Shown one piece after another: positions 995 through 50,586 of a stretch of DNA of 64,000 nt. Source of the DNA: Cetorhinus maximus (lineage: Eukaryota). The stretch covers positions 32,860,001-32,924,000 of the forward strand of contig NC_135902.1 in NCBI RefSeq assembly GCF_964194155.1. Reading direction: 5' to 3'. How positions within the stretch are numbered: position 1 is the first letter of the stretch; each line of letters opens with the position of its first letter. Both the position numbers and the translations under genes were made by a program. Below the pieces are notes generated by a model. The model was given only the letters and a program-made list of their open reading frames with translations, made no database searches and was not told the origin of the DNA.

Positions 995-3765
995 TTTTGT
1001 TACTGGACCAGAAATCCAAAAGACTGGACTAGTAATAGGGACATTGAATTCCAAACCCACCATGGAAGTTTGTGAATTTAAATTCAGTTAATTTAATGAA
1101 AATCTGGAATTAAATGGTGACTGCGAAGCAATCAGGTTGTCATAAATATCGATCAGATTCACAAACCTGCCCTCCTTACCCAGCCTTGGCCTAAAGGTGA
1201 CTCCAAACCCTCTCTAACATGATTGACTCTTAATTGCCCTCTGAAACGGGCCAGCAAGCCACTATTAAACCACTATAAAGAGCAATAAATAATACCAGAC
1301 AGACAGCCCAACATCTAGCCAGGCATGGAGTTGGACACTACATCCAGCCTTATCAACTCTAGAAAGATTTCCTGCATCGAGGGACTTGTGTAAAAACTGG
1401 GAGAGCTGTCCCATACACCAGTCCAGCAAAATCCTGACATAGACATATTCGTAAAATCACACCTTTCAGTCAACGTCAGACTCCTTCATCACAATCCCTG
1501 GATATGTCCTCTCTTAACAGATGGCAGCACAGTGATATAGTCAGGCAGGAATGACCCTGGGAGTCCGCAATACTGACTCCGGACCCCAATAAATGATCAT
1601 GGACAAGGAAACCTCTTGCTGATTACCAGCTACCGCCATCCCTTAGCTGATGAATCAGTGCTCTTTCATGTTGAACGCCACTTGGCAGAAGCACTGAAGG
1701 TCCAGAATGTACTCTAGTTGGGGAACCTCAATATCCATCACCAAGAGTGACCAGGTGGCAGCACAATTGATCAAGCTGACCAAGTGCTGGTGATGAAAAC
1801 AAAGACAAGGGAAAAACCTATTTGACTACATCCTCACCTTAATCCATCTGTCCATGACAGTGACCATCTGTCCCGTCTTCACAATGAGGACACCCTCCAC
1901 TGTGTTGTGTGACATTACAACCGTGCTAAATGGGGTAGATTCAGAACAGACCTAGCAGCTAAAAACTGGGCATCCATGAGGCACAGCGGACCATCAGCAG
2001 CAGCAGAATTGTATTCCACCACAATCTGTAACCTCACTGCCAAGTATATTCCTCACTCTACTATCACCATCAAGGCAGAGAACCAACTCTGGCTAAATGA
2101 GTACAAGAGAGCATGCCAGAGGGCACACCTAAAAACAAGGTGCTAGCCTGTGCCACAACACAGGACTACCTGCATGCTAAACAGCACAATTAGCATACTA
2201 TAGACAGAGCTAAACTATCCTAAAACCAACAGATTAGTCAAAGATATGCAGTCCTGCCGCATCCAGTCATTAATGGTGGTGGATAGTTTAACTAACAGGA
2301 GGAGATAGTTCCATGAACATGTTGTTGAACGAAGGGCAGCATGATTGCAAAAGACAAAACCACTCGCAACTATCCTCAGACAGAAGTGCCGAGTGCATGA
2401 TCCATCTCAGCCTCCTCCAGAGGTCCCCAGTATCACAGATGCCAGTCTTCAGCTAGTTCATTTCACTCCCTGTGATGTCAAGAAAGCTGAGTACTGTGGA
2501 TACTGCAAAGGCTATGGGCCAAGACAACATCCCGGCAATACTACTGACGGCTGCTGCTCCAGAACTGGCCAGGCACCTAGCCAATCTGATCCAGTAAAGC
2601 TACTGCTCCAGAACTAGCACGCAGGCACCAAACTGCTTCATTATCTGAAGAATTGTAAATGAAACGGAACACTGTGCGATCATCATAAAACACCCCTACC
2701 TCTGACCACTAGCCTCTATCCGACAATGTGGAAAATTGCCCCTGCGTGTCTATCCAAAAAAAAACAGGTCAAATTCAACGTGGTTAATTATCGCCTCTTC
2801 GGTCTACCCTCAATCAGCATCAAAGGAGTGGAAGGTGTCATTGACAGAACTATCAAGTGGCACTTACTCGCCAGTGACCTGCTCAATGATGCTCAGTTTG
2901 AGTTCCAAGAATACTTGGCTCCAGATCTCATTACAACCTTGGTCCAAAGATGACGCGAGGCGAGAGCGACTGTCTTTGACATCAAGGCAGCATTTCATCG
3001 AGTGTCATCAAGGAGCTCTAGCAAAACTAAAAGTCAATGGGAATCAAGGGATAATTCTCCACTGGCTGGTGTCATACCCTGCACCAAGGAAGATGATTGG
3101 GGTTGTTTGAGGCCTGGACATCTCTGTCTGAGTTCCTTGGGGCAGTTTCCCAGGACCAACCATCTTCAGCTGCTTCACCAATGTCTTTCCCTCTATCATT
3201 AGTTCAGAGGTGGGGATGTTTTCTGATGATTGCACAGTGTTCAGTTCCATTAACAATTCTTCAGATAATGAAGCAGTTTGGTTCCCGCAAGAATTAAGAC
3301 CTGGACAATATCCAGTCTTGGGCTGACAAATGGCAAGTTACATTCGTGCCACACAAGTGCCAGGAAATGACCATTTCCAACAGGAGATAATCTAACCATC
3401 TCCCTTTGACATTCAATGGCATTACTATTGCTGAATTCCCCACCAGCAACATCCTGGGGGTTACCACTGACCAGAAGCTGAACTGAACCAGCTACTGTGC
3501 CTACAAGAGAGGGTCAGAGGCTAGGAATCCTGCGATGAGTAACTCACCTCCTGACTCCCCAAAGCCTGTTCACCATCTACCAGGCACAAGTCAAGAGTGC
3601 GATGGAATACTCTCCACTTACCTGGATGAGTGCAGCGCCAAAAACACTCAAGAATCTTGGCATCATCCAGAACAGAGCAGTCCGCTTGATCTATACCCTG
3701 TCCAGCATCTGAACCTTTCACTCCCTCTACCACTGGTGCAACGTGGCTGCAGTGTTTACAATGAA
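995..3765 (+). mobile_element. Decayed CR1/L2-group LINE (APE endonuclease + RT remnants), 3' truncated
   Basis: APE-like remnants from about 1370; RT remnants WKIA..C...KKQ, FSDDCT, WADKWQVTF; same family as 11545-12491 and 55487-58342. Confidence 0.85.
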
Positions 3766-7556: not shown

Positions 7557-9070
7557 TGAACACATAAATTAGGAGCATGAGTAGGCCACTTGGCCCTTCG
7601 AGCCTGCTCTGCCATTTGATAAGATCATGGCTGATCTGGTTGTGGTCTCAACACCACTTTCCTGACTGCTCCCCATAACCAACTCAGCCTTAAAAATATT
7701 CAATGATCCTGCCTCCACTTCTGTCTGGTGAAGAAAATTCCACAGACTAATGACACTCAAGAGACAAAAATTCTCCTCATCTCAGTCTTAAATGGGAGAC
7801 CCTTTAGTTTTAAAAAGGTGCCCCCCTAGTTCTAGATTCCCTCATGAGAGGAAACATCCTCTCAGCATCTAACCTGTCAAGTACCCTCAGGATCACCTCT
7901 CATTCTTCTAAACTCTAACGGATACAGTCACAACCTGTCCAACCTTTCCTCATAAGATAACCCCTTCATCCCAGGAATCAGCCTAGTGAACCTTCATTGA
8001 ATTGCCTCTAATGCAATTATATTCTTTCTTAAGTACTGTGGATGTGGTCTCACCAACATATAACTGTTGCAAAACTTCCCTACTTTTATTTTCCATTCCC
8101 CTTGCAATAAACGACAACATCCCATTTGCCTTCCTAATCACTTGCTGTACCTACATACTAACTTCTTGTGATTCATGTACCAGGATACCCAGATCCCTCT
8201 GTACCAGAGAGTTTTACAATCTCTCACGATCTAAATAATGTGCTGCTTTTCTATTCTTCCTGCCAAAGTGGACAAGTTCACAGTTTAAAAACAAAAAACT
8301 ACTGCGGATGCTGGAAATCCAAAACAAAAACAGAATTACCTGGAAAAACTCAGCAGGTCTGGCAGCATCAGCGGAGAAGAAAAGAGTTGACGTTTCGAGT
8401 CCTCATGACCCTTCGCCGAAGGGTCATGAGGACTCAAAACGTCAACTCTTTTCTTCTCCGCCGATGCTGCCAGACCTGCTGAGTTTTTCCAGGTAATTCT
8501 GTTTAAGTTCACAGTTTCCCACATTATACTCCATCTGCCAAATTTTTGTGCCCATTCACTTAACCTATCATTATCCCTTTGCAGACTCCTTATTTCCTCT
8601 TCACAACTTATCCTCTCACTGATCGTTGTGTCATCAGCAAATTTAGCAACCATATCATCCAAATCATTGATGTACATTGTAAATGTTTGAGGCCCCAGCA
8701 TTGATCCTTGTGGCACTCCACTAGTTACAGCTTGCCAACCCAAAAATGACCCATTTATCCCAACACTGTGCATCCTGTTAGCTAGCCAATCCTCTACCCA
8801 TGCTAATATGTTACCTCCTACACTATGAGCTCTTATTTTGTGTAATAACCTTTGATGTGGCATCTTATCAAACACCTTTTGGAAATCCAAGTACACCACA
8901 TCTACAGGTTCCCCTTTATCCACATTGTTTGGTACTTCCTGAAAGAACTTTAAGAAATTAGTCATACATGATTTCCCTTTCACAAAACCATGTTGACTCT
9001 GCTCGATTCCATTAAGATTTTCTAAGTGCCCTGCTATACCCTCCTTAATTATGAGTTCCAGCATGTTCCC
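7557..9070 (-). mobile_element. CR1 LINE 3' portion (RT + 3' UTR), interrupted by a fold-back insert
   Basis: ORF 8336-9121: QHGFVKGKSC, YLDFQKVFDK, SGVPQGS, KFADDT; CR1 tail near 7560-7630. Confidence 0.92.
8287..8504. mobile_element. Fold-back Penelope-derived insert, copy 1
   Basis: About 90-bp near-perfect inverted arms; 13-bp TSD AAGTTCACAGTTT at 8274-8286 and 8505-8517. Confidence 0.9.
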
Positions 9071-9128
9071 AAGCACATGTTTGTTCAGTTTCCCAACAGC
9101 AGCTTTGAGTGGACAAGGCAAATGTATT

Positions 9129-9305
9129 CAGGGTGACCAACTCTCGCGGAGAAGATTAAAGGGCACTCTGGCATGGGGTGGGGCTGCCAGGGCTAAGAGA
9201 TCCAGAATGGAGGGTTCTGACAGGGCTGCATTTGACCTGGGACACAGGTCAGTGTCCTCAGATACGGGACGATCCTATAAAATAAGGGATTAGTTGGTCA
9301 CCCTG
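9129..9305. mobile_element. hAT-type MITE
   Basis: Perfect 14-bp TIR CAGGGTGACCAACT; flanking 8-mers AATGTATT / GATGTACT (6/8 identical). Confidence 0.72.
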
Positions 9306-11149
9306 GATGTACTGGTGACTTCACACTATTGTTAAGCTGGATAAAAATGACTCCCATAAAATCTGTCTTGTCTCTGAATTTTTTTTTAAATTCCAATACA
9401 ATTTTTCTTAAAAGATAAAAGTACACATATTTACAATTTGCGCAATCCTAATGTTTGCAGAATCACAAAATACTGACGTTCCTTCCTGTCCCATTAAACA
9501 GAGGAAAAGACTGAAGTTTAGCTTCAATTGAATCTCCAACACAGGTTCAGTTGTTGAGAACTCAAGCCATTCTTTTCACTGGAGGAAGGAGCTGCAGGAG
9601 CTCTCTAATCCCACTGCAACTCGATAGCACTTTCTTCAAGATGCTATAACCTCAGATGTCTTAACAGCTGAAGATGTTTAAGCATCCTCTCTAGATCACT
9701 GAGCTCGATCATTTAACTGAAATTCCAGGGAATTGGCATCCTTACAAATAGCACCACCGAGTCCATAACATTACTTTAAAAGATATGACTGGAATTTCTT
9801 TTTTTGTTTTGGTAAGTCAGATTGAAATATATCAGTAAAAGTAGTCTGTATTTAATAAAATGACCATGGAGGAGAAGTTAACACATAAAGGCAACTGTAA
9901 TCATATAAAGGCCATCAAAACCTGCCTCTGACCATCAGTAACAGATTAGTCTTCCTTACTTGGAAGAAAAGGCTGTGGCCAATGTGTATCCAATTTGATG
10001 TTATTTCCTTGCAGATATGAAGTCTAAGAAACATCACTTCCTATGGAGTCTGAAGTGAGGGAGATTATATGTCCAATATGAATAAAGACACACAGCACTG
10101 CTTAGAGAAATACAATAATTGATGACGTTGACAAGAGCGAATCCAGCTCACAAAATATGACAAAATGGCGATCTCGTCTACTGAACATGGATTGATACAC
10201 GGGCAATGGTTTTCTGAGTTACATGATTTGTTGACAAATCACAGCATGACAGCCAGTTTTAAAATTTCACAGCGATGGACATATATACAAATCGAAAATA
10301 TAACGTGTACAATTTGGAATTGGTCAATATATAATGAAGCAAATCGAAGAGAATAACCTACCCTCAGTTACCACACCATTTTAATTGCTGAGCAGCTACA
10401 ATCAAAATAGATGATACCTGTTCTTTCATGATATGTATTGTGGGACAGACCAGTCTTGCTCAGGCAAGTGGTTACCAGTTCAAAGTAATTTGGAGAAACT
10501 TGTTCTAACTGAAGCTTTCTCATACCCGACACAATAGGCTTCTACCACAGCAAGCCCTCATTCCTTATAAACTTAAACATGACCTTACGTACAAGCTATT
10601 CCAGGTTGGCAGGGTGAATACTGAACTCTTTTTACTATTAAGGTATGTGCTAGAAGAGGATCACAATGCACAATCTGGAACCCTCACAACTAAAGGGCAA
10701 ATAATACAGTCACAGGCCCTGTAACTTTGGTTAAGAAACTACCAATCAAGATTACTAAAAAAATAAGACTAGCACAAACCAAGGAAAATAGCAAACACGT
10801 GTCAAAATGATTAACATCTGAAAACTTCCAGTTTTTAATAATAACCAAATTACTTTGGACTGCAGGCATCCATGAGGACAAATTTTGTGTGAGAACTGAA
10901 CTTCCATTGAACCCTGAATCCAGTGGTACAGTGAGAAATGGGCAAGTAAATGAACAACATCAAGTCATACTCGTACCTGGTTTCAGGTAGCTGCTGGCGA
11001 CAAAATTGTCAAAGCAAAATCAAAACCCCATCCAGGTGGCCCCTTGTCCTCCCAAAGGTCTGACTTCAGCCATTCCCTTATTTCCAAGACAAACCAGAGC
11101 TGAGAGTCTGGTAAATAAGATCCCATAATGAGACTGATAACACAGCTTC

Positions 11150-13275
11150 AAAACAACAACTTGTATTTATGTATTAATATTTATATATTTAATGTTAATA
11201 AAATGTTCCGAGGCATTATAAAACAAAGCATGGCACTGATCCACAGAATGAGATATTACAGCAGATGGTCCAAGCTTGGTAAAAGAGGTGGGTCTTAAGG
11301 GGCTTCTTAAAGGAGGAAAGCGAGGTAGAGAGGTGGAGAGATTTAGAGAGGGAATTCCAGAGCTTAGGCAGCTGAAGATACAGCCACCAATGGTGGTAGC
11401 GTTTAAAATCGGGGAGGTTCAAGAGGCAGGATTAAAGGAGCACAGATATCTCAGAGGGTTGCAAGGCTGGTGGAAATTACAGAGGGGCCTGGCCATGGAC
11501 TGATTTGAAAACTAGAATGGGAATTTTAAAATTGAGGTTTTTTTAAAAAATTCATTTACAGGATGTGGTGTCGCTGGCTAGGCCAGCGTTTACTGCCCAT
11601 CCTTAACTGCCCTTGAGAGGATGGTGGTGAGCTGCCTCCTTGAACCACTGTGGTCCATGTGGTATAGGTACACCCACAGTGCTGTTAGGGAGGGAGTTCC
11701 AGGATTTTGACCCAGCGACAGTGAAGCAACAGCGATATATTTCCAAGTCAGGTTGGTGAGTGGCTTGGAGGGTAACTTCCAGGTGGTGGTGTTCCCATGT
11801 ATCTGCTGCCATTGCCCCTCTAGATGGTCGTGGTCATGGGTTTGGAAGGTGCTGCCTAAGGAGCCTTGGTGAGTTCCTGCAGTGCACCTTGTAGATGGTA
11901 CACACTGCTGCCACTGTGTGTTGGTGGTGGAGGGAGTGAATGTTTATGGATGTGGTGCCAATCAAGCGGGCTGCTTTGTTCTGGATGGTGTGAAGCTGTG
12001 TTGTGGGAGTTGCACTCATTCAGGCAAGCAGAGAATATTCCATCACACTCCTGACTTGTGCCTTGTGGACAGGTTTTGGGGAGTCAGGAGGTGAGTTACT
12101 CGTCGCAGGATTCCTAGCCTCTGACCTGCTCTTGTAGCCACAGTATTTATATGGCTCGTCCAGTTCAGTTTCTGGTCAATGGTAATCCCCAGGATGTTGA
12201 CAGTGAGGGATTCAGCGATGGTAATGCCACTGAACGTCAAGGGGTGATGGTTGGATTCTCTCTTGTTGGAGATGGTCATTGTCTGGCACTTGTGTGGCGC
12301 GAATGTTACTTGCCACTTGCCAGCCCAAACCTGGGTATTTCCCAGGTCTTGCTGCATTTGGACAAGGACTGCTTCAGTATCTGAGGAGCCTGGAGTGATA
12401 CTGAACATTGTGCAATCATCAGCGAACATCCCCACTTCTGACCTTATGATGGAAGGAAGGTTATTGATGAAGCAGCTGAAGATGGTTGGGTGTTGTTGAA
12501 CTTGGTGCCAGTGTGGATGGGTGAATAGGATTTGGCAGCAGAGATTAGGATGACTTCAACTTTAGAGCACGTAGAATGTGGGAGGCTGGTCAGGAATGTG
12601 TGAGAATAGCCAAGCCTGGAGGTAACAAAGGCATAGATGAGGAATTCAGCAGCAAAGGAACTGAGTCAGGGCAGTGATGGGCAATGTTAGGGAGGGAGAA
12701 ATAGGAGGTCTTACTGAAGGAATGGATATGTGATTGAAAACTCATTGTGAGGTCAAATATGACGCCGAGGTTGTACAGAGCATGGTTCAGTCTCAGACAG
12801 TTGCCAGGGAGAGGGATGGAATCAGTAACTCCCAAAAAACAGTTTGACAATTTCGAGAGTGTGGAGAGGTCCAGAGAGGAGGTGTTGAGGTAGTACGGGT
12901 TGTGTACATGTGGAAACTGATGCTGTGTTTTGGATGGTGTTGCCATGAAGCAGCATGTAGATGAGAAATTGGAAATGTCTAAGGACAGATCTTTGGGTGA
13001 CACCAAAGGTAATGGTGCAGGAATGGGAAGAGACGCTATTGGTGGCAATCCTCTGGCTATGGTTACATAGATAAGCATGGAACCAGGTGAGTGCAATCCC
13101 ACCCAGCTGGACAATAATCGAGAGGTGTTGGAGGAGGATGATGTGATCATCTGTGTGAAAGGCTGCAGACAAGTCAGAAAGGACAAGGAGGGATAGCTTG
13201 CCTCTGCCACAGTCACATAGGATGTCATTTGGAACTTTGATAAAAGCCATTCTGGTGCTGTGGCAGGGGCAGAAA
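11150..13275 (-). mobile_element. L2 LINE remnant split by a nested LINE
   Basis: L2-type RT remnants LVLSDLSAAFHT.DH.ILL, NLGVIFD, KLWNSL..FKKPLKTHLF; tail at 11150-11180. Confidence 0.85.
11545..12491 (-). mobile_element. 5'-truncated CR1/L2-group LINE nested in L2
   Basis: MFADDCT...KWQVTFAPHKCQ, IQNKAARLIG; A-rich tail near 11545. Confidence 0.9.
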
Positions 13276-13659
13276 CAAGGTAAAAGAGCAAATGAAATAT
13301 TCTAAATAAGAGAAGATCATTCATATTGAATTTTCAATCACTTGGGTAGGCAGTAATTCTTCTCTCACACTCTTTCCCTATTTGTCAACAAATTTCCAAA
13401 TCCATAGTGAACCTTCAAATATAATTAGACATCTAAGGCAGAAAATAACTCAAAGACACACTACTTACACAGCTTTAAGCTATAAATGATGCAGACCTGG
13501 TTCAGATAATGTGTGCGTTCATGTTGACAGGCTGCTCCCAAAAAGCAGTAATCATTTTAAGATAGGGATAATATTGGCAAAGTTGCAAATTGTTCCCCAC
13601 CAAGGAAAATATACAGTTAGGTAGAAATTCTTACGGTGATAAACAGAGCTCCGATCTGT

Positions 13660-13776
13660 TAGAACCATAGAAAAGTCACAGCGCACAAAGAGGCCATTCA
13701 GCCCATCGTACCTGTGCCGGCTGGGAAAATTAGCTGCCCATTCTAATCCCACCTTCCAATAGAACCATAGAAAATT
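13660..13776 (-). mobile_element. Short CR1-type 3' end fragment
   Basis: gaggccattcagcccatcg CR1 tail motif; TAGAACCATAGAAAA repeated at both ends. Confidence 0.6.
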
Positions 13777-14167
13777 ACTGTCATTAGTGTTATTGTCATT
13801 AAGTTCGGTGAAAATCCAATAATTTGCTTCGAGTTATGAGGAAGTGGGTATTTGCAGAAGGAATGCTCAAGGACAACTGGGTGCCTTTTACAAATGGAAC
13901 TGAAAGGAGGTAATTTCACTCACTGGGTTTGGTTAAAAAAAACAGTTGTTGAGGCATTGGTGACAGAGAACCTAACAGCGCTGCAACTCCATGTGAATGG
14001 TGTCCAGCAACATTATGAAGCCCTGAAAACAATGAAATGACACTAGGGTAAGCCACATTGCACGGAGGGGTGTTTCTCAGAGTCTACCTGAGCTTAGAGT
14101 GTGGAATTGGGGAGGCGGGTGGTGTTAGAAAATGAAAAATACAATAAATATTGATGCACACACTAAC

Positions 14168-14355
14168 CTCAAAGACACATTTGATCTGGCAGCAGAGATT
14201 AGCCCGTTAATCACTAAACAGCAGCCCCCATTCCAGGCAACTTCTGAACACCCACGGATCTTCACACAGCCATTGGCTGGATCCAGCTGCTGGTCTGCAA
14301 ACAAAGGCTGAATTTCCTGTGCACTCAGGTTAAGCCAGCTTCCAATAGCCTCTAC
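14168..14355 (-). CDS. ENGASE: ENGASE exon 10 (VEAIGSWLNLSAQEIQPLF...AWNGGCCLVINGLISAARSNVSL)
   Basis: Hand translation; W.NLSAQEIQP and AW.GG motifs; ctgcag acceptor, GTTAGT donor; 188 nt. Confidence 0.96.
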
Positions 14356-14639
14356 CTGCAGGAAGCAACATCACAGTGTTGTTCATTAACTGGAGCTAGA
14401 TTCAAAAACACTGTAGACAATTGGCAGGAAATGTTAGGCAGGGTTCAGTAAATTGTGTAGATTTTAATTTCTATTGATGGTGCTCAAGAATATAAATATA
14501 ATAAATTACCACCTTCTGCATTTTTAAGCTCAGCCTACGTATTCATTCGCCAAGGGGTTAATCAAAAATATCAACAGTTTAGCATCATAATCATGAATTT
14601 CCAAGAATGTATCCATCACGCGTGCCGAAAAGAGAAAGA

Positions 14640-15062
14640 ACAAAATTGAATTCATTTAGCGCCTTTCACCAGCCCAGGATGCCCCAGTGCACTTTACAGA
14701 CAACTACATGTTGTTGACGTGTAGTCACTGCTGTAATGTAAGGAAAGTGGCAACCAGTATTTTGGGCACAGCAAAGCACCAGCACTTTGATACATGACCA
14801 GATAATCTGTTTTAGTGATACTGGTTGAGATAAATATTGACCAGGACACCAGGGAGAGCTCCACTGCTCTTCTCTGGAAAGATGCCACAAGATTGTTAAA
14901 GAACCACGAGGGCAGAGGAGGCCTCACTTTAATGTCTCATCTGACTCCTGCAGTAAATACTGCACTGGGAATGTCAGCCAGATTACTGTGTTTAAGCCTC
15001 TGGGGTGGGTCTTGAATCCACAACCTTCTACCTGAGAGGCGAGAGTGCTACCACTGAGCTGG
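14640..15062 (-). mobile_element. Near full-length tRNA-derived SINE with L2-type tail (SacSINE1/DeuSINE-like)
   Basis: Minus strand begins agctcagtggtagcactctcgcctct..aggttgtggattcaag (A/B boxes) and ends in the shared L2-like tail. Confidence 0.75.
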
Positions 15063-16110
15063 AGACTGTAGATGCTTAAAAGGTTATTCTCCTAACACGT
15101 TGCTGTCTGAAGGTCAAACCAGGCCATGAACTGAGCAGATTCAGTGCATCAAACATCACAGACTTGAAGACGTGGAGAAGTGGTTATGCTTAAACATCGG
15201 GTCTGAACTTTGCCTTTTACAGCTTTTAAATTACCCACAGAAACTGTATCGCAGCACTTACGCCACTGCATTTCTGAGAGAGTCTAACAGTGGATGTAGA
15301 TTTAAAAAATGATAGGGAGCAAGGACTGATGACAAGCCTGTAACCTAATCAAAGGGTTCCAATTCTTTGGACTGACCCTTTATTATGTTATCCAAACTCA
15401 AAGATTAGATATGTCTTTTACTTTGTTCCCTATTATCTGTGGCAATATATATGGGAATTCTGGATCGTTACATTGGTAAGTCTTAATGTCCTTGGCTATG
15501 GCTTTGCCTGCAGGTTGTGAAGGTTAGTATTAATATGCTCTATGACTTACTGCTTTTGCATAGTCGATGCAAAACGACAGAGAAAATGAAAATTACAGCA
15601 ACTGTTGGCAAGATCATTTCTGAATGAAGATGTTTCTTTTAAAAACAGAATGTTTTTAATGAAATATTCTAACAGATACCATAGTTACTGTGACACACAT
15701 TCAGATGTTGTTTGCAGTTGATTCACGGTGAATCAGTGTGGCCAACTCCACTTCAGTGTCAACAGTTTCCTTCTTGTGGTAAGTATTCAACCTCTCGGAT
15801 TTGGGAAATGAAGGGTTAAAACGATTACTATGATTTATAAAGTGTGTTATACTTATGAAGGCTGTTTCTCTCGCTATATTTTTCTACTACAACCTTCGGC
15901 CTACACATCTGGCCTGTTTTTCTCTATGGGCAAAATTTTCTGGCTGGCAGACGGGCTGAGCGGGAGCAGACCTGATCGCCGCCCGCGATTGGGTCCACAC
16001 CGCCGTTTTACGCGGGCTGGCCGATTAAGGCCCGCCCAGTGTGAATCGCGGCTCCCGAGGACAGTGGAAGTGGGCGGGCGGCGGCAGGACTGCAATGACC
16101 ACCGGGTCCA

Positions 16111-18028
16111 ATGGCGACCCGAGGGGCCCGTTTTAAAAAGCTGCTGCAGCCTTTCAAAGGCTGTGAATCAGGGCCAGCAAGAAGGGCTCCCCAGAGCACT
16201 GCTGCTGAGCAGGCCAGGCAGGCGGGCACTGTACCCCTCATTTTTCAGACAATTGCCTTGCTGCCCTCCTCGAGGCGGTGGCAGCATGGTGGGAGGTCCT
16301 CGTACCCCAGGACGGGAGGAGGAGGCCCCCCTCCACATGACCAAACGTGCCTGGGAGGAGGTAGCGGAGGTGGTGAGCTCCCGCGACGTGGTGTGACGCA
16401 CGTGGATCCAGTGTCGCAAGCGATTCAACGACCTGTTGCACTGGAGAAGAGCAAGTACCATGTTGGCTCTGGTCACTTAATCCAGCAGGGTCTGCTGTCC
16501 TCTGCACTCCACGTGCTTGCACTTCCTTACTAAGGAAGGTTAGACCATACGGTGCCAAATGTGATGCAGGCAGCATTTGGCCAAGGGGGTGGGGCGGGTA
16601 AGACAGGCCTGGCATCTTTGTGTGAGTGTTCAGCAGCTGCGGGGTGAGGAGGCACTGGGGTCCTGCAATGTCCCACTCTAGTTGGGGTGGGCCGTGCGCG
16701 AAGAGAATCCAGGTACAAGTTGCACTAATCAATGCTCTTCTCTCCTTTTCAGGAGAATGCACATAATGCCACCGAGCGGGTGAGGGCTGGCCCAGGTGGC
16801 AATGCTTAGCCGCTTCGAGCAGGAAGCCCTAGATCTGGAGAGGCGCCATGCGCCCAGGTCCACCAGTGTCGGTGAGGCTGGGGTGCCACGGACAGGTATG
16901 TATGGCCAGCAGTGAGGTCACCATTGTTCTCCCAACAGCCATGACAGTGCTGAATGTTCAGTGATTGAAGTTTGCAACATGACTTGTCCATTGCTCATAA
17001 TGATCTGGGGGACAGGGACGCACATTGACATTGTCACCATGTTAACTGATCAAATGTCCTTGTTCTTCCTTTCAGTATCAGTGAAGCAGGGCTGGGAGGA
17101 GGAGCAGAGGTCCCCTCTCACACCTGAGGGCCCTGAAGTCTCGTACTCACAAGCGTCACACCATCTCTGCCAAGCAGACACCAGCGCAGATACTAGCACC
17201 TCGGTGGGAATTCGAACACTGGCTAGTGTCCCAGGGCACAGCAGTGAGGGTACTTCACAGTCGCTGGAGGAGCTGGCAGAGACAGAGAGTGCCCATGGCG
17301 CCAGCAGTTGGAGGACTGCAGGGGACCAGGCACATGCTCAGTCGGTGCCTGATGATGTGCCTCTGGAGTCATCCACGACACAGCAGCTGCAGGAAATGCG
17401 GCCGGGTGTGCGGGAGCATATGGTGGAGATGCATGAGGCTGTGCTTGGCTCAGTGTCCGTGGTGAAGGAGTCTACGTGGATCATCGCCAATGCAATGAAC
17501 CTCATGGCCGAGCACCTTGCATCCTCCATGGAGAGAGTGGCGACTCTCATGGAGAGGCTTCTCCAGGAGACCAATAAGGGTTTCCTGGGGATGCGCTCAG
17601 ACCAGCAAGCCCTCACGTTGGCATTGACCTCAGCTGGTCAGTGCCAGTGTGGGAGATGGTCTGGGCACCAAGTTTCCCAGCTCGGTGCCCATCCATCCAC
17701 GGTGAGCAGGGAGGCCCGAAGCGACCTCACGTTGGCGCAGCAGCTGCCTGTCGTCTCTGCGGGCTCCTCTCAGGGCAGCAGCTCCTCCGCCCCTCTGCCA
17801 GCGATCATTGCATCCGATGAGGCTGCAACGACTGGGGAGATGCCAGCTGTGGAACTGGCAGCTCCCTCCCAGGCGGGGCCGGCACAGGCTCCACGGGCCA
17901 GAGGACAACCGCCAAGGTCATCGAGGCCAACAGCACAGCACAGTGGGCAGGCTGTCTCAGATGCCACTCCCAGTGAGGGATCAGCACCAAGACGTAGCAC
18001 CCGAAAATGTAAGCATAAGACACCTTAG
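16111..18028 (+). pseudogene. Harbinger Myb/SANT-like DNA-binding protein gene, three exons (about 16111-16450, 16753-16895, 17076-18028), disrupted
   Basis: FSD..L..LLEAV...KRAWEEVAEVV..*RTWIQCRKRFNDL Myb/SANT pattern with frameshifts and TGA at 16394; exon 3 open for about 317 codons; true start uncertain. Confidence 0.82.
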
Positions 18029-18345
18029 GCACACCACAGGTTTATCACTGGTGCTTTTGTGTTGACCCGCAATGAGGTCTTTATGAGTTGGTGTGATTCT
18101 TTGTCATTTTGTTCTCTTAAGTTCCTTTTGTTATACCATTAAATTCAGACATGTCACCATGGCTGAGGGTGCCTCTTTTCTTCTGCAGGCGTATGGTTTC
18201 CAATAATGTAACGAGTGTTTTGTGGGACATTCAGCTTTATTAACAATGCCCTTAGTTAATGTTCCTATCCAGGCAGATTTTGCACTCAGGTATCGAGTAT
18301 GGAGCCTGCAGCCCAGGTTTGTCCTGGAGGTCCATCTGTGGTGAG

Positions 18346-19572
18346 CTAGCTGAAGGTTCGTTGGATTAAAGCCTCCCAGGTGTCCCTGCCTCCCTGGAGT
18401 ATGCCCAGGTCAGTGTCTACCCCCTCAGCATTTCCCTGTGCGTGCTCATCCTCAGACTCACTGCTGGACTCATCGTGTGCAGCCGCAGCCACAGCATCTA
18501 CGTCTTCATCGTCCACAGCTTCCCCCTTTCCAGCGCAAGATTGTGGAGAGCGCAGCAGCAACCACTATCACCGAGACATGATCTGGGGGGTACTGGAGTG
18601 CGCCCCCTGAGCGGTACAGGCACCGGAAGCGCATTTTGAGAAGACCGATGGCTGTCTCCACCACAGCCCTTGTGAAGCCCTGGCTCCAATTGTACCGCTG
18701 CTCAGCTTCTGTTCTTAGATGGCGGAGAGGCGTCATGAGCCACCTTCTGAGGGGATAGCCCTTGTCACCCAGCAGCCATCCATCAAGCCGGGCCGGAGCA
18801 CTGAAGAGCCCCGGCACCTGGGAGTGTCTGAGGATGTAGGCGTCATGGGAGCTGCCGGGGAACCTTGCACAGACTTGTAAAATCTGCATCCTGTGATCAC
18901 ACACTATCTGCACGTTCATGGAGTGGAAGCCCTTCCTGTTGACGCAGGCACCAGGCTCACCTGCTGGCGCCTTGATGGCCACATGTGTACAGTCTATTGC
19001 ACCCTGGACACAGGGGAAGCCAGCAATGGCCGCGAAGCCTCTGGCTCGCTGTGTCTGGCTTGCCTGGTCCCAACAGAAGTGAATGAAAGTCAATGCCCGT
19101 CTGAACACAGCGTCTGTGACCTGCTTGACACAAGTGTGGACAGCTGATTGGGAGACACTGCAAAGATCACACACCGAGCCCTGGAAGGAACCAGATGCAT
19201 AGAAGTTGAGGGCAGCTGTGACCTTTAGAGCCACTGGCATGGGGTGTCCACCCACACAGTTAGGGGAGATCTCAGGCCCAATCATCTAACAGATATAGCT
19301 GACTGTCTCCCTTGATAGTCGGAGCCTCCTTCGGCACTGCACCTCAGACATATTGAGGTAGCTGCTTCGCCACCTGTAAACCCTGGCAGCAGGATAGTGG
19401 ATTCTTTTGCGGCCCCTTCCACCTTGGTCCACCTCTCCACCCTTTGTGCCTGCGCCTCTCCTCCCAAAGGTGGCCCCCCTGGAGGCTGAATGTGCACTCC
19501 TGGCCTCCTCCCCCTTCTAGCCCTCCCTTCCTCCTCAGAGGAGGTGCCTCCAGTAGAGAGTTCAACTCCCAT
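18346..19572 (-). pseudogene. Harbinger DDE transposase (HARBI1-like), disrupted
   Basis: GAIDCTHV, NRKGFHSMNVQ, PGSSHDAYI, LLGDKGYP, RAVVETAIGLLKMRFRCL; in-frame TAG at 19286-19288 and frameshifts near both ends. Confidence 0.93.
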
Positions 19573-20094
19573 TCCCAGGCTGAGGGAAGGCTTCCTGAAA
19601 CCTGCAGGCCCAAAAATGATTCTTCACTGTATAATGCTGACCTGAAGGTTGTGAGTCCAGTCCAAGCAGCTGGAATGAGTTTTTAAGTATTGCAGCTCAC
19701 ACAGGTAAGTATCAGTAACTTTCCAAATTAAGTATTTGACCGTGCACACTCGCGATCCCACAGAGCCCTCTTATCCCGCCAGTGGATGAGGTTAATACAA
19801 ATGTCTCCTACCCGCCTGCCCGTTGCAACCGTGCGACGACCCAAAGATCGCACGGGCACCGAAAAATCGCCATCAGTTGGCGTCTCAAGGGTCTTAAGTG
19901 GCCCATTAATGAATGGCAGGAGCGCATCGGATATCATTGTACACCCGCCCAACAAAATATCACAATGACGCGCGGTGACATTGGGATCTGGCCCGATGTC
20001 ACCGCACATCATTTTATGCATCAGCGCGCGAGTCCCGCCCCTGTATGCCAACAGGAAAATCCTGCCCTATGTGTTTTACTAGAGATGAAGTTAC

Positions 20095-47949: not shown

Positions 47950-49200
47950 TATAAACAGAAAATGCTGCAAATATTCAGTAGGTCATAAGAACGTAAGAAA
48001 TTAGAGCAGGAGTAGGCCACACAGCACCTCGAGCCTGCTCCGCCATTCAATGGCTGATTTGATTTTGGTCTCAACTCCACTTTCCTGCCTGTTCCCCATA
48101 ACGCCTGACTCCCCTATATTTCAAAAAGCTGACTATGTTTAAGGCTGAGAGAAACAGTGACTCGGCCTCCACAGTTCCCTGGGGTAGAGAATTTGAAAGA
48201 TTCACAACCCGCTCTGGGAGAAGAAATTCCACCTCACAAACAGAAGACCCCTTATTTTGAAACCGTGCCCCCTAGTTCTAGATTCACCACGAGGGGAGGC
48301 ATCCACCCTACCAAGCCCCCTCATAATTGAACACATCTCAGATAAGATCAAAGTCAGGCCGTATCAGTGGAGAGTGAAAAAGCGTCACCATTTCAAGTTG
48401 ATGACCCTTCAGCAGAAAAAGATTTAGATATTTAACAGGTTTTAAGCGGGGAAAGGGATGTCTGTGATTGGGTAGAGGGCAGGAGTGATTCATTGACAGG
48501 AAGGGGTGAGGCTGCAAGGCAAGAAGGGTGATCACTGGATACATAAAGCAACAAAAGATGGGTCTTGAAGAGCTGCAAATAGCCACAGCTGGATCTTAAC
48601 CAGTGCCTGCTCTCTTAATAAGAGAGACCTATTTTTATGATCTGAAATTGTTGAACTCTATGTTGAGTCCAGAAGGTTGTAAAAGACTTAACTGTAAAAT
48701 GAGGTGCTGTTCCTCAAGCATGTACCAAGATTCACTGGAACAAGAGAGGAGGCAGAGGACAGAGATCAGAGTGGGATAGAAAATTAAAATGGCAAGCGGC
48801 CAGAAGCTTAGGTCATGCATGCAGTCCTGGAGATGTTCAAGAAGGCAATCACCCAACCTATGCAAGTGGTCTCTCTTTCCCCACCTCCCACCATCCACCC
48901 CACTCCCAAGTGGAGGAGAATACAGTTTCTAGATGGAAATAAATTTAGAGTATTTAGGGCTTTGGAGAAGGAGGAGGTAATAGGGCATGTGTTGCATCTC
49001 CTGTACTTGCACAGGAATGTGTCTTTGGGGATGATTCACGAGTGGATCTGGGTGTCATGGAGGGAACGATCCCTTCAGAATTCTGAAAGGCAAGAAGATA
49101 TTTCTGGTTTTAGCCAACACGGGAAGTAATGGGAACGGCAGAGGATGGCCGGTTAAACATGGAGGCTGGTGGGGCGGAACATCAGCACAAGGGGAATCCT
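47950..49200 (-). mobile_element. Decayed Penelope-like element with a CR1 3' end nested at about 47985-48350
   Basis: LEEQHLILQL..LQPSGLNIEFNNFRS GIY-YIG C-terminus; terminal repeat split by the CR1 tail. Confidence 0.8.
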
Positions 49201-49528
49201 ATTGTGGTACTGGAAAGACGAGTTCTATTTCTCACCACCCACCCCATCTCCCCTCCCCACCCCAGAGAACATTCAATTATGCACATTTATCACCCATGCA
49301 GTCAGGTTTTGGCCTACACATATTCATCGTATCATAACTGAAAATGTGCCCTCAGAAGGTTCCCAGCTTAAAAGAGTCTCATTTCTTTCAAGTGAAAATG
49401 AGCAATTAGCTGAAATGAGCATTTATCCATCAGGTATTTGGTAACCGGACAAAACATGAACAGGTCAAGAAGGAATATGTAATAATCGAGTACTTAAAAA
49501 AAAGAATGTCAGGATGCCATTCACTACC

Positions 49529-49749
49529 TTGATAAAAACAAAAAACTACTGCGGATGCTGGAAATCCAAAACAAAAACAGAATTACCTGGAAAAACTCAG
49601 CAGGTCTGGCAGCATCGGCGGAGAAGAAAAGAGTTGACGTTTCGAGTCCTCATGACCCTTCAGCATGAGGACTCGAAACGTCAACTCTTTTCTTCTCCGC
49701 CGATGCTGCCAGACCTGCTGAGTTTTTCCAGGAAATTATGTTTTTGTTT
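49529..49749. mobile_element. Fold-back Penelope-derived insert, copy 3
   Basis: Inverted arms; 14-bp TSD TGCCATTCACTACC at 49515-49528 and 49750-49763. Confidence 0.9.
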
Positions 49750-50586
49750 TGCCATTCACTACCAACATGCACCAATCACAAAATCAAACTCATCAGCTAA
49801 ATTCTTCACACTATCTTCACCTGCCATTTTACTTCTTTACTCGGTATTATGTAGTTAGAAATATCTTTTAGAAAACACATAATTCTAAATAAGGTCACTA
49901 AACTTCCCCAGAAGATTGGTTATTTAATATTGGAATTTCCTGCAAGCAGTCACCTTCATATAGGCTGGTCTTTTTGTTAGACGCCTGGGGCCTGAGTTAG
50001 AAATTTCATTTGGGCCTACAGAAAGGGAAAGTGAGAAAAAGGACCAAAAGAGAGAAAAAAATAAATTAAGTTGTTTCTACTAGAGATCTTATTTTTTTCC
50101 AACAATCATTTAAACACCTCTGTTTCCAGTCCAGTCACACACTGAATAAAACAGATAAAATACTCAAAGCATTAAAGGGTAAGGTACATTGACATGAAGG
50201 ATGTAATGTTCTCACAGAGTCCTGTTAATATAAATTCCAATGAAAAGCCTTCATGTTCTGGGAGCATGTCAAATCAAACAACACATTCTCTACAGCTTGT
50301 ACCCTCAAGTATCTCATTCATGTACATCAGGTAATCGCTTTATATGCTGCACATAAAAGAATTAACGCAATAGATTGGAAAGCAGCAGAAGTTCCTTCAT
50401 TCCAACCAGCGCTCTAAAGTAAGATGCACCGTATCTCCATTGGTTCTGGATGATAAAAACACGACAAATACAAAACTCTGGAATATATTTCAGTACTAAC
50501 ATTTGATGCATGCATAATTACTGGGGTTTTCCACTTGCATCCTCACCAAGTCTAGCATTGAGTTTGCTGAAGTTAGAGATACTCAC

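What the first reader, a model, noticed from the sequence alone, without database searches (positions are those of the whole stretch)
8274..8517. Young fold-back (hairpin) retro-inserts built from Penelope termini, each with a 13-14 bp TSD
Seen: three near-identical 182-221 bp inserts (8287-8504, 29904-30085, 49529-49749), each two inverted copies of one sequence, with perfect TSDs of 13, 14 and 14 bp. One arm always carries an extra terminal segment, and the central junction differs in every copy. The arm is homologous to the 3' end of the Penelope element at 35410-35510. Known: Penelope-like elements often insert with an inverted, truncated terminal repeat. Inference: differing junctions mean each hairpin formed during its own insertion (two priming events on one RNA end) rather than being copied from a master MITE; three in 64 kb implies a very large, recent family.
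Basis: partly seen in the sequence, partly recalled or inferred. Interest (0 to 1): 0.72.

Follow-up and report, generated by a model that had tools for sequence, protein, structure and literature searches.

The report
Minimal two-armed Penelope retroelement insertions
These ~200-base hairpins are real insertions and the shortest form of a very abundant Penelope-type jumping gene, in a layout already described for that class; their paired arms suggest that both cut DNA strands likely start copying the same RNA at two sites 36 bases apart.

Summary
Confirmed: three fold-back inserts (218, 182, 221 bp) with exact 13, 14 and 14 bp TSDs. An orthologous empty site is shown for one, in a related organism. 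They are not a MITE: 45 of 46 short copies have their own junction, and sizes run from 125 bp to near-full-length RT + GIY-YIG elements with the same ends. The parent has a Neptune-type linker. The copy at 35410-35510 is an older relative (about 82%), not the parent. The layout (inverted 5'-truncated copy, one-sided 30-40 nt tail, TSD) is published for Penelope-like elements, and this scan found it before in this and other genomes. Added here: both arms come from one source (334 of 347 diagnostic sites agree; shared rare variants about 20 times chance). Arm lengths are coupled, either arm can be the deeper, the target has a mirror-symmetric consensus, and short arms stop at a predicted TATA/Inr start. 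The likely mechanism is twin target-primed reverse transcription from two start sites, joined by microhomology repair; it is inferred, not shown. I estimate 8,000-20,000 short hairpins, fewer than the window's density implies. Known kind; moderate mechanistic interest.

The parts
8274..8286 (.). Copy 1 left TSD (13 bp)
   Evidence: present once in uninserted host-LINE copies
8287..8414 (-). Copy 1 tailed arm (element 3' end, reference positions 2943 to 2815); about 8287-8321 is the ~35-nt tail
   Evidence: 98% to coding copy L133
8415..8504 (+). Copy 1 untailed arm (reference 2812-2901); junction without filler
8505..8517 (.). Copy 1 right TSD
29890..29903 (.). Copy 2 left TSD (14 bp)
   Evidence: single at the empty site of organism B
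29904..29953 (-). Copy 2 untailed arm (reference 2908 to 2858)
29953..30085 (+). Copy 2 tailed arm (from reference 2818), another subfamily; 1-nt overlap at the junction
30086..30099 (.). Copy 2 right TSD
49515..49528 (.). Copy 3 left TSD (14 bp)
49529..49665 (-). Copy 3 tailed arm (to reference 2811); runs 2 nt past the usual tail end into the tandem read-through sequence, plus 2 extra bases
49664..49749 (+). Copy 3 untailed arm (reference 2822-2909); 2-nt microhomology at the junction
49750..49763 (.). Copy 3 right TSD
34534..35516 (+). Older, single-armed, 5'-truncated PLE of a related family (GIY-YIG remnant with stops; canonical hammerhead core at 35419); own 13-bp TSD 34513-34525 / 35520-35532; not the parent of the hairpins

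Best explanation
The hairpins are the smallest, gene-less insertions of an abundant endonuclease-bearing Penelope-like retrotransposon, likely made by two target-primed reverse transcriptions from one source RNA. Shown: ends, TSDs, a size continuum to coding copies, a single source for both arms, coupled arm lengths and a symmetric target consensus. Inferred steps: (1) two GIY-YIG nuclease sites nick both strands about 14 bp apart, leaving 3' overhangs. (2) Each 3'-OH primes cDNA in one of two U-rich tracts of the RNA about 36 nt apart; the outer start gives the tailed arm, the inner the untailed arm. (3) The transcript of a partial tandem carries these tracts twice. Priming on the 5' copy, about 100 and 138 nt downstream of a predicted TATA/Inr start, runs off the RNA end and gives arms of at most about 100 and 138 nt, hence 180-250 bp hairpins; priming on the 3' copy gives long arms. 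(4) The two cDNA 3' ends are joined head-to-head by microhomology or filler end-joining, then gaps are filled, giving the TSD. The short products lose the TATA box and are likely dead ends.
For: Identity: coding copies with the same end (RVT_1 E 1e-5 and GIY-YIG E 4e-4, both below Pfam's gathering cut-off; YIG/CCHH and CX4CXXC motifs); partial tandems in which the tail runs into the ORF start 38 nt later. Two starts: 76 of 77 two-armed inserts have exactly one tailed arm, and 49 of 77 untailed ends lie at 2904-2910. Both end types also occur alone (25 untailed and 9 tailed of 34 single-armed copies). This matches two in vitro RT start sites and extension of both strands in an anole PLE (PMC11167929). 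One source: 334 of 347 diagnostic-site comparisons agree (3.7% discordant, against 39% in shuffles); shared rare non-CpG variants 4.1 per kb against 0.18 per kb. Coupled lengths: rho 0.59, n = 37, p 1e-4; 6 mixed long/short inserts against 13.8 expected. The untailed arm is deeper in 42 and the tailed in 31 of 76. Symmetric target: pyrimidine at +3 from the nick in 115 of 130 half-sites (60 of 66 and 57 of 66 by side), and 28 of 36 in single-armed copies. Joint: 12 of 19 filler-free junctions have 2-4 nt microhomology against 14% expected; 25 of 46 have filler. Run-off: 22 arms stop at 2801-2811 against 2 at 2789-2800 (37 against 6 in all 77), where TATA and an Inr-like TCAGTT lie 29 nt apart.
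Against: No RNA start was measured: no RNA holder was listed and contigs cannot show starts. Single-armed copies show no clear pile-up at the predicted start (4 of 34 in 2800-2824, against 7 in 2825-2849). A second small peak at 2775-2780 lies in the TATA box and is not explained by run-off. The same point also holds a short dyad that could favour annealing of two cDNAs. Concordance cannot tell one RNA molecule from two RNAs of one active source, and conversion between arms after insertion is not excluded (within-insert 2.1% and 1.1% against cross-insert 3.4% and 3.2%). Near-symmetry of long arms is weak (4 of 18, p 0.03, in a set enriched for pairs). Position 2813 differs between arms in 7 of 46 inserts, which is unexplained. 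The +5 and +7 target signals did not repeat in single-armed copies. The less-biased sample is the first 7 Mb of one contig and needs an exact 33-mer, so arms starting after 2864 are missed.
Confidence: 0.62

Rival explanations
1. Self-priming or fold-back: one cDNA (or an antisense template) folds on itself and copies itself back, producing the inverted arm. This is the published reading of head-to-head palindromes in PLEs.
For: Explains a single source and coupled lengths. Proposed in PMC3846280 (Discussion). Compatible with the 31 of 76 inserts in which the tailed arm is the deeper.
Against: A copy-back cannot be deeper than its template, nor add a tail that its template lacks, yet the untailed arm is deeper in 42 of 76, by up to 1.1 kb. 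Untailed ends occur alone, several with called TSDs, so the inner site primes by itself. Both strands are extended in vitro (PMC11167929).
Confidence: 0.13
2. Twin priming by a dimer that holds two separate RNA molecules, both from the same currently active source.
For: Symmetric target half-sites; a predicted PLE dimer (PMC11167929); subfamily concordance is expected if one master dominates in a cell; discordance at 2813 in 7 of 46.
Against: Does not by itself explain why the arms use different start sites (both tailed in 3 of 81, both untailed in 1 of 81), nor why long/short mixes are rare. No insert joins the two main subfamilies (0 of 65 scored).
Confidence: 0.2
3. A non-autonomous family (MITE or hairpin SINE) copied from a master hairpin.
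For: Modal size of about 180-250 bp and thousands of copies.
Against: 45 distinct junctions in 46; a size continuum to 3.3 kb; a variable 12-16 bp TSD; one-sided tail; each insert's arms track its own subfamily. The single repeated junction joins copies of different subfamilies.
Confidence: 0.03
4. Assembly artefact (fold-back reads) or later recombination between neighbouring copies.
For: Palindromes are a known assembly hazard (PMC8557442 passage).
Against: TSDs on both sides, an empty site in organism B, arms about 2% diverged and one-sided tails.
Confidence: 0.02

Closest known systems
Inverted-pLTR + tail insertions of EN+ Penelope-like elements (Pen2a_Av, PMC3846280, parts 1-4 of 5 read; PMC8557442 Fig. 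2 legend and passages read)
   Same: Inverted 5'-truncated copy at the 5' end, 30-40 nt tail on one end only, TSD, TATA/Inr-like motifs in the pLTR.
   Different: Here the ORF-less minimal form is a leading product (22 of 76 units in the sample), in thousands of copies, with a 14-bp modal TSD (9-10 bp in Adineta). The arm statistics argue against the self-priming reading given there.
PAc (Poseidon of Anolis carolinensis) in vitro system (PMC11167929, parts 1-3 of 4 read; supplements not read)
   Same: Two RT start sites whose spacing is the tail; both strands cut and extended; start internal to the RNA near the ORF start; uncleaved RNA is the template.
   Different: Other clade (no CX2-5CXXC linker). 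There the starts lie in an AC-rich stem-loop inside the ORF; here in U-rich tracts upstream of the ATG. The text read does not model how the inverted arm forms.
Opposite-strand pairs of minimal hammerheads 100-700 bp apart in Schistosoma (PMC4209133, parts 1-2 of 4 read)
   Same: ORF-less, inverted, truncated PLE ends, probably the same kind of object.
   Different: Mentioned in passing, with no TSD, tail or junction analysis; the core here is non-canonical (never A at position 6 in 100 listed matches).
L1 twin priming / 5' inversion (recalled, not read here)
   Same: Both target nicks prime cDNA on one RNA; joined by microhomology.
   Different: In L1 the second primer lands upstream, so the inverted and direct parts do not overlap. 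Here both start at the same end and overlap fully.
Non-LTR retrozymes (bioRxiv 10.64898/2026.07.22.740005, part 1 of 5 read)
   Same: Short, non-coding, derived from PLE pLTRs, hammerhead-related.
   Different: Retrozymes are head-to-tail tandem units with complete ribozymes; these are head-to-head, with individual junctions and truncated or altered cores.

Membership tests
EN+ Penelope-like element insertion | Parent encodes RT plus C-terminal GIY-YIG with two cysteines between GIY and YIG (CCHH) | tested here: met
   RVT_1 E 1e-5; GIY-YIG E 4e-4; below gathering scores; motifs read directly; copies seen carry stops or frameshifts
EN+ Penelope-like element insertion | Partial tandems forming pLTRs | tested here: met
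   L142-L145, L149, L158, L167: 3' end + tail runs into the ORF start
EN+ Penelope-like element insertion | Inverted 5'-truncated copy and one-sided 30-40 nt tail | tested here: met
   76 of 77 have one tailed arm; tail about 35 nt
EN+ Penelope-like element insertion | Variable-length TSD | tested here: met
   65 of 76 called TSDs are 12-16 bp, mode 14; empty site
EN+ Penelope-like element insertion | Hammerhead motif in the pLTR | tested here: inconclusive
   Stem I/II/III layout seen by eye, with the core altered at position 6; no Rfam hammerhead hit; activity not testable; truncated in the three hairpins
Neptune clade | CX2-5CXXC Zn-finger-like linker between RT and EN (absent in Penelope/Poseidon) | tested here: met
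   CX4CXXC upstream of GIY-YIG in L122; criterion from PMC8557442
Neptune clade | RT phylogeny groups with Neptune rather than Nematis | not tested
   No reference PLE set at hand; Nematis also has a linker
MITE | Copies share one fixed internal structure | tested here: not met
   45 distinct junctions of 46
MITE | Fixed short TSD and symmetric TIR ends of a DNA transposon | tested here: not met
   TSD 12-16 bp and asymmetric ends
Non-LTR retrozyme | Head-to-tail tandem units each with a complete type I hammerhead | tested here: not met
   Head-to-head arms; cores cut by the junction in the three copies
Named Dfam/Repbase family | 80-80-80 match to a library consensus | not testable with these tools
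   No Dfam or Repbase on hand

The most novel reading that the evidence does not exclude
The inverted pLTR and one-sided tail of all EN+ Penelope-like elements are the footprint of an undescribed integration mode: a two-fold symmetric nuclease makes a 14-nt staggered break, and both ends prime full, overlapping cDNAs on one RNA from two staggered start sites. Priming near the RNA's 5' end mass-produces ~200-bp perfect hairpins, thousands per genome, replacing the published self-priming idea.
Probability: 0.4. Interest if true: 0.6.

Novelty: new member of a known kind. Interest (0 to 1): 0.36.

Why it matters
How Penelope-like elements integrate is still open: one protein has been studied in vitro, and the published reading of the inverted ends is self-priming. 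Thousands of short, cleanly bounded copies record start sites, nick spacing, target preference and joints, so they give precise predictions that the existing in vitro assay can test. They also warn that repeat pipelines may misfile such hairpins as MITEs or miRNA precursors (Rfam miRNA models hit them below gathering score). If transcribed they would be ready-made double-stranded RNA; a Penelope element is the heavily A-to-I edited repeat in lizard (PMC5625713 passage). That was not tested here.

Tried and rejected
MITE and assembly artefact: rejected. The 34534-35516 element as parent: rejected (73%). A G/C difference at the hammerhead core between arms first looked like evidence of two templates; it came from the end of my first query (0 of 100 listed matches have it) and was dropped. 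Ribozyme cleavage as the cause of truncation: few arms stop near the predicted cut (4 at 2837-2848 against 37 at 2801-2812). Tail read-through length as a marker of 5'-copy priming: inspected, no clear difference between short and long inserts. Rfam gave no hammerhead hit. RNA: no RNA holder listed, so no start or expression test. Polymorphism: no empty joint among those shown for the organism A runs (117 joints not shown), inconclusive. Hairpins could not be counted genome-wide by one pattern, so the number is an estimate from samples. No dimer fold was run (two full copies exceed the size limit). Literature searches: 'Penelope' + 'twin priming' gave 3 papers, none on PLE mechanism by listing; Penelope + shark + palindrome gave 4, none describing these (one read in passages); a six-term mechanism search gave 0; some searches gave the papers cited. 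Arkhipova 2006, Evgen'ev and Arkhipova 2005, Dfam/Repbase notes and all supplements were not seen and may already describe the minimal form or this model.

Full report
Observation. The three inserts, their coordinates and their exact 13, 14 and 14 bp TSDs are as stated. The palindromes are highly significant. Copies 1 and 3 are 99% alike; copy 2 is of a sister subfamily. The duplication is real: a single contig of organism B crosses the site of copy 2 without the 182-bp insert and with the 14-mer once, with 44 other letters in about 1,200 flanking bases. Uninserted copies of the host LINE carry copy 1's 13-mer once. The genome is 3.99 Gb. That it is a shark is my recollection of the repeat and the wording of earlier notes; I did not test it.

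Family. An exact 33-mer of the arm occurs 35,961 times and an exact 56-mer 5,033 times, with 0 for the reversed controls. I recovered the units behind the first 100 matches (first 7.07 Mb of contig C1): 76 units, of which 37 are two-armed, 34 single-armed and 5 complex or cut; 22 of the two-armed are 300 bp or shorter, and sizes run from 125 to 3,132 bp. That scales to about 7,900 short hairpins as a floor. Three young hairpins in 600 kb of evenly spaced regions give about 20,000, with wide error. The window is 10-20 times richer than average.

Parent. Long copies share the same end and the same layout. L133 has a 2.9-kb body, a 430-bp inverted arm, a tail and a 14-bp TSD. Their frames carry RT and GIY-YIG (below gathering scores), with the CCHH pattern and a CX4CXXC linker, which points to the Neptune side rather than Penelope/Poseidon (PMC8557442 passages); no tree was built. 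In partial tandems the tail runs on into an ATG 38 nt later. The window's element at 34534-35516 is an older family with its own 13-bp TSD. All positions below are on the real copy L133 (tail end 2943).

Not a MITE. Of 46 short two-armed inserts with an 11-20 bp TSD, 45 junction pairs are distinct. Nineteen have no filler, 12 of them with 2-4 nt microhomology (14% expected, p 2e-6); 25 have filler, some copied from nearby sequence; 2 are ambiguous. This resembles polymerase-theta-type end-joining (recalled knowledge).

Two start sites. Of 81 two-armed units I dropped 4 (three complex both-tailed units without a sound TSD, one older family). In the other 77, 76 have exactly one tailed arm; 49 untailed ends lie at 2904-2910; 65 of 76 called TSDs are 12-16 bp, mode 14. 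Both ends fall in similar U-rich tracts, and both end types also occur alone. This matches the published tail and its in vitro explanation as two RT start sites with both strands extended (PMC11167929).

One source, coupled arms. The arms agree at 334 of 347 diagnostic comparisons and share 46 rare non-CpG variants in 20 of 77 inserts (4.1 against 0.18 per kb in 300 shuffles; 165 rare variants are unshared). Their depths correlate (rho 0.59 in the 37-unit sample; 0.75 in the pair-enriched set), and long/short mixes are under half the expectation. The untailed arm is deeper in 42 and the tailed in 31, which simple fold-back cannot give. This sets the data against the self-priming reading of PMC3846280. 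Limits: one molecule cannot be told from two RNAs of one source, conversion between arms is not excluded, and position 2813 differs in 7 of 46.

Target. Read outwards from each inferred nick, both half-sites show a pyrimidine at +3 (115 of 130), with weaker G at +5 and pyrimidine at +7; only +2/+3 repeat in 18 single-armed copies. Position +1 is biased by the way TSDs are called and is ignored. The symmetry fits two equivalent nuclease sites; a dimer is predicted in PMC11167929.

Why about 200 bp. Arms pile up at 2801-2824 with a sharp upstream edge (22 at 2801-2811 against 2 at 2789-2800). A TATA-like motif and an Inr-like TCAGTT lie 29 nt apart there, 138 nt before the tail end. I infer run-off at the RNA's 5' end after priming on the 5' copy of the start sites. 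Against this: single arms show no clear peak, a small peak lies in the TATA box, the spot also holds a short dyad, and no RNA data were available. The predicted hammerhead cut, near 2841, is not a stop hotspot.

Prior knowledge. The layout is described in PMC8557442, PMC3846280, PMC2377424 (passages) and PMC8969392 (passages). Opposite-strand hammerhead pairs 100-700 bp apart are noted in PMC4209133. Very short PLE insertions (median 128 bp) are reported in PMC9977147 (passage). My searches found no paper giving this twin-priming model or describing these hairpins in sharks, but key subscription papers, Repbase/Dfam and supplements were not seen. This scan has noted the same thing many times: 125 findings held my search words, and 16 Penelope notes fit in this genome. 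These include the transcription-start and both-strand ideas; I had written the start-site idea down before looking. They are not independent support. A search for notes on the symmetric target and template test found none.

Verdict. Real, well bounded, a known kind of product in unusual abundance. Identity as minimal PLE insertions: about 0.97. Twin priming overall: about 0.8; the one-RNA version with 5'-end run-off: about 0.6. Interest 0.36.

Noticed in passing
family pLTR, reference 2810-2816 (e.g. L142, L143): The hammerhead-like core never has A at position 6 in 100 listed genome matches (only CC, CT, TT at positions 6-7), whereas the older window copy at 35419 has the canonical core.
   Followed up: partly
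reference 2813, e.g. L095, L182, L238, L262: This one base differs between the two arms in 7 of 46 inserts, also where the arms share rare variants elsewhere; hypermutable site or unequal 5' and 3' pLTRs; unexplained.
   Followed up: partly
L130:4180-7257: 3-kb insert with an internal duplicated inversion and arms differing at only 1 of 632 compared bases: very young or converted.
   Followed up: no
L035:4674-4996 and L135:5743-6249: Short tandem repeats built from pLTR pieces at the junction or 5' end (44-bp and about 60-bp units).
   Followed up: no
L098, L123:6491-6753, L247, L258: Copies in which the ORF start joins the 3' region directly, i.e. hollowed partial tandems.
   Followed up: no
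L009:1476-1608: Apparently single-armed copy with a micro inverted arm of about 13 nt made of the tail end only; such tiny arms would raise the two-armed fraction.
   Followed up: no
window 48634-49213 (-): Old PLE fragments, 67-71% to the young family, about 300 bp from hairpin 3.
   Followed up: no
window 18509-19285 (-): 259-codon open frame resembling a Harbinger-type transposase (label recalled, not searched).
   Followed up: no
window 28205-28331: Degenerate GC-rich palindrome (69%), unrelated to the Penelope arm, no TSD found.
   Followed up: partly
window 2621-2705 and 3204-3288: 85-bp inverted duplication (89%) inside an old LINE, no TSD found.
   Followed up: partly
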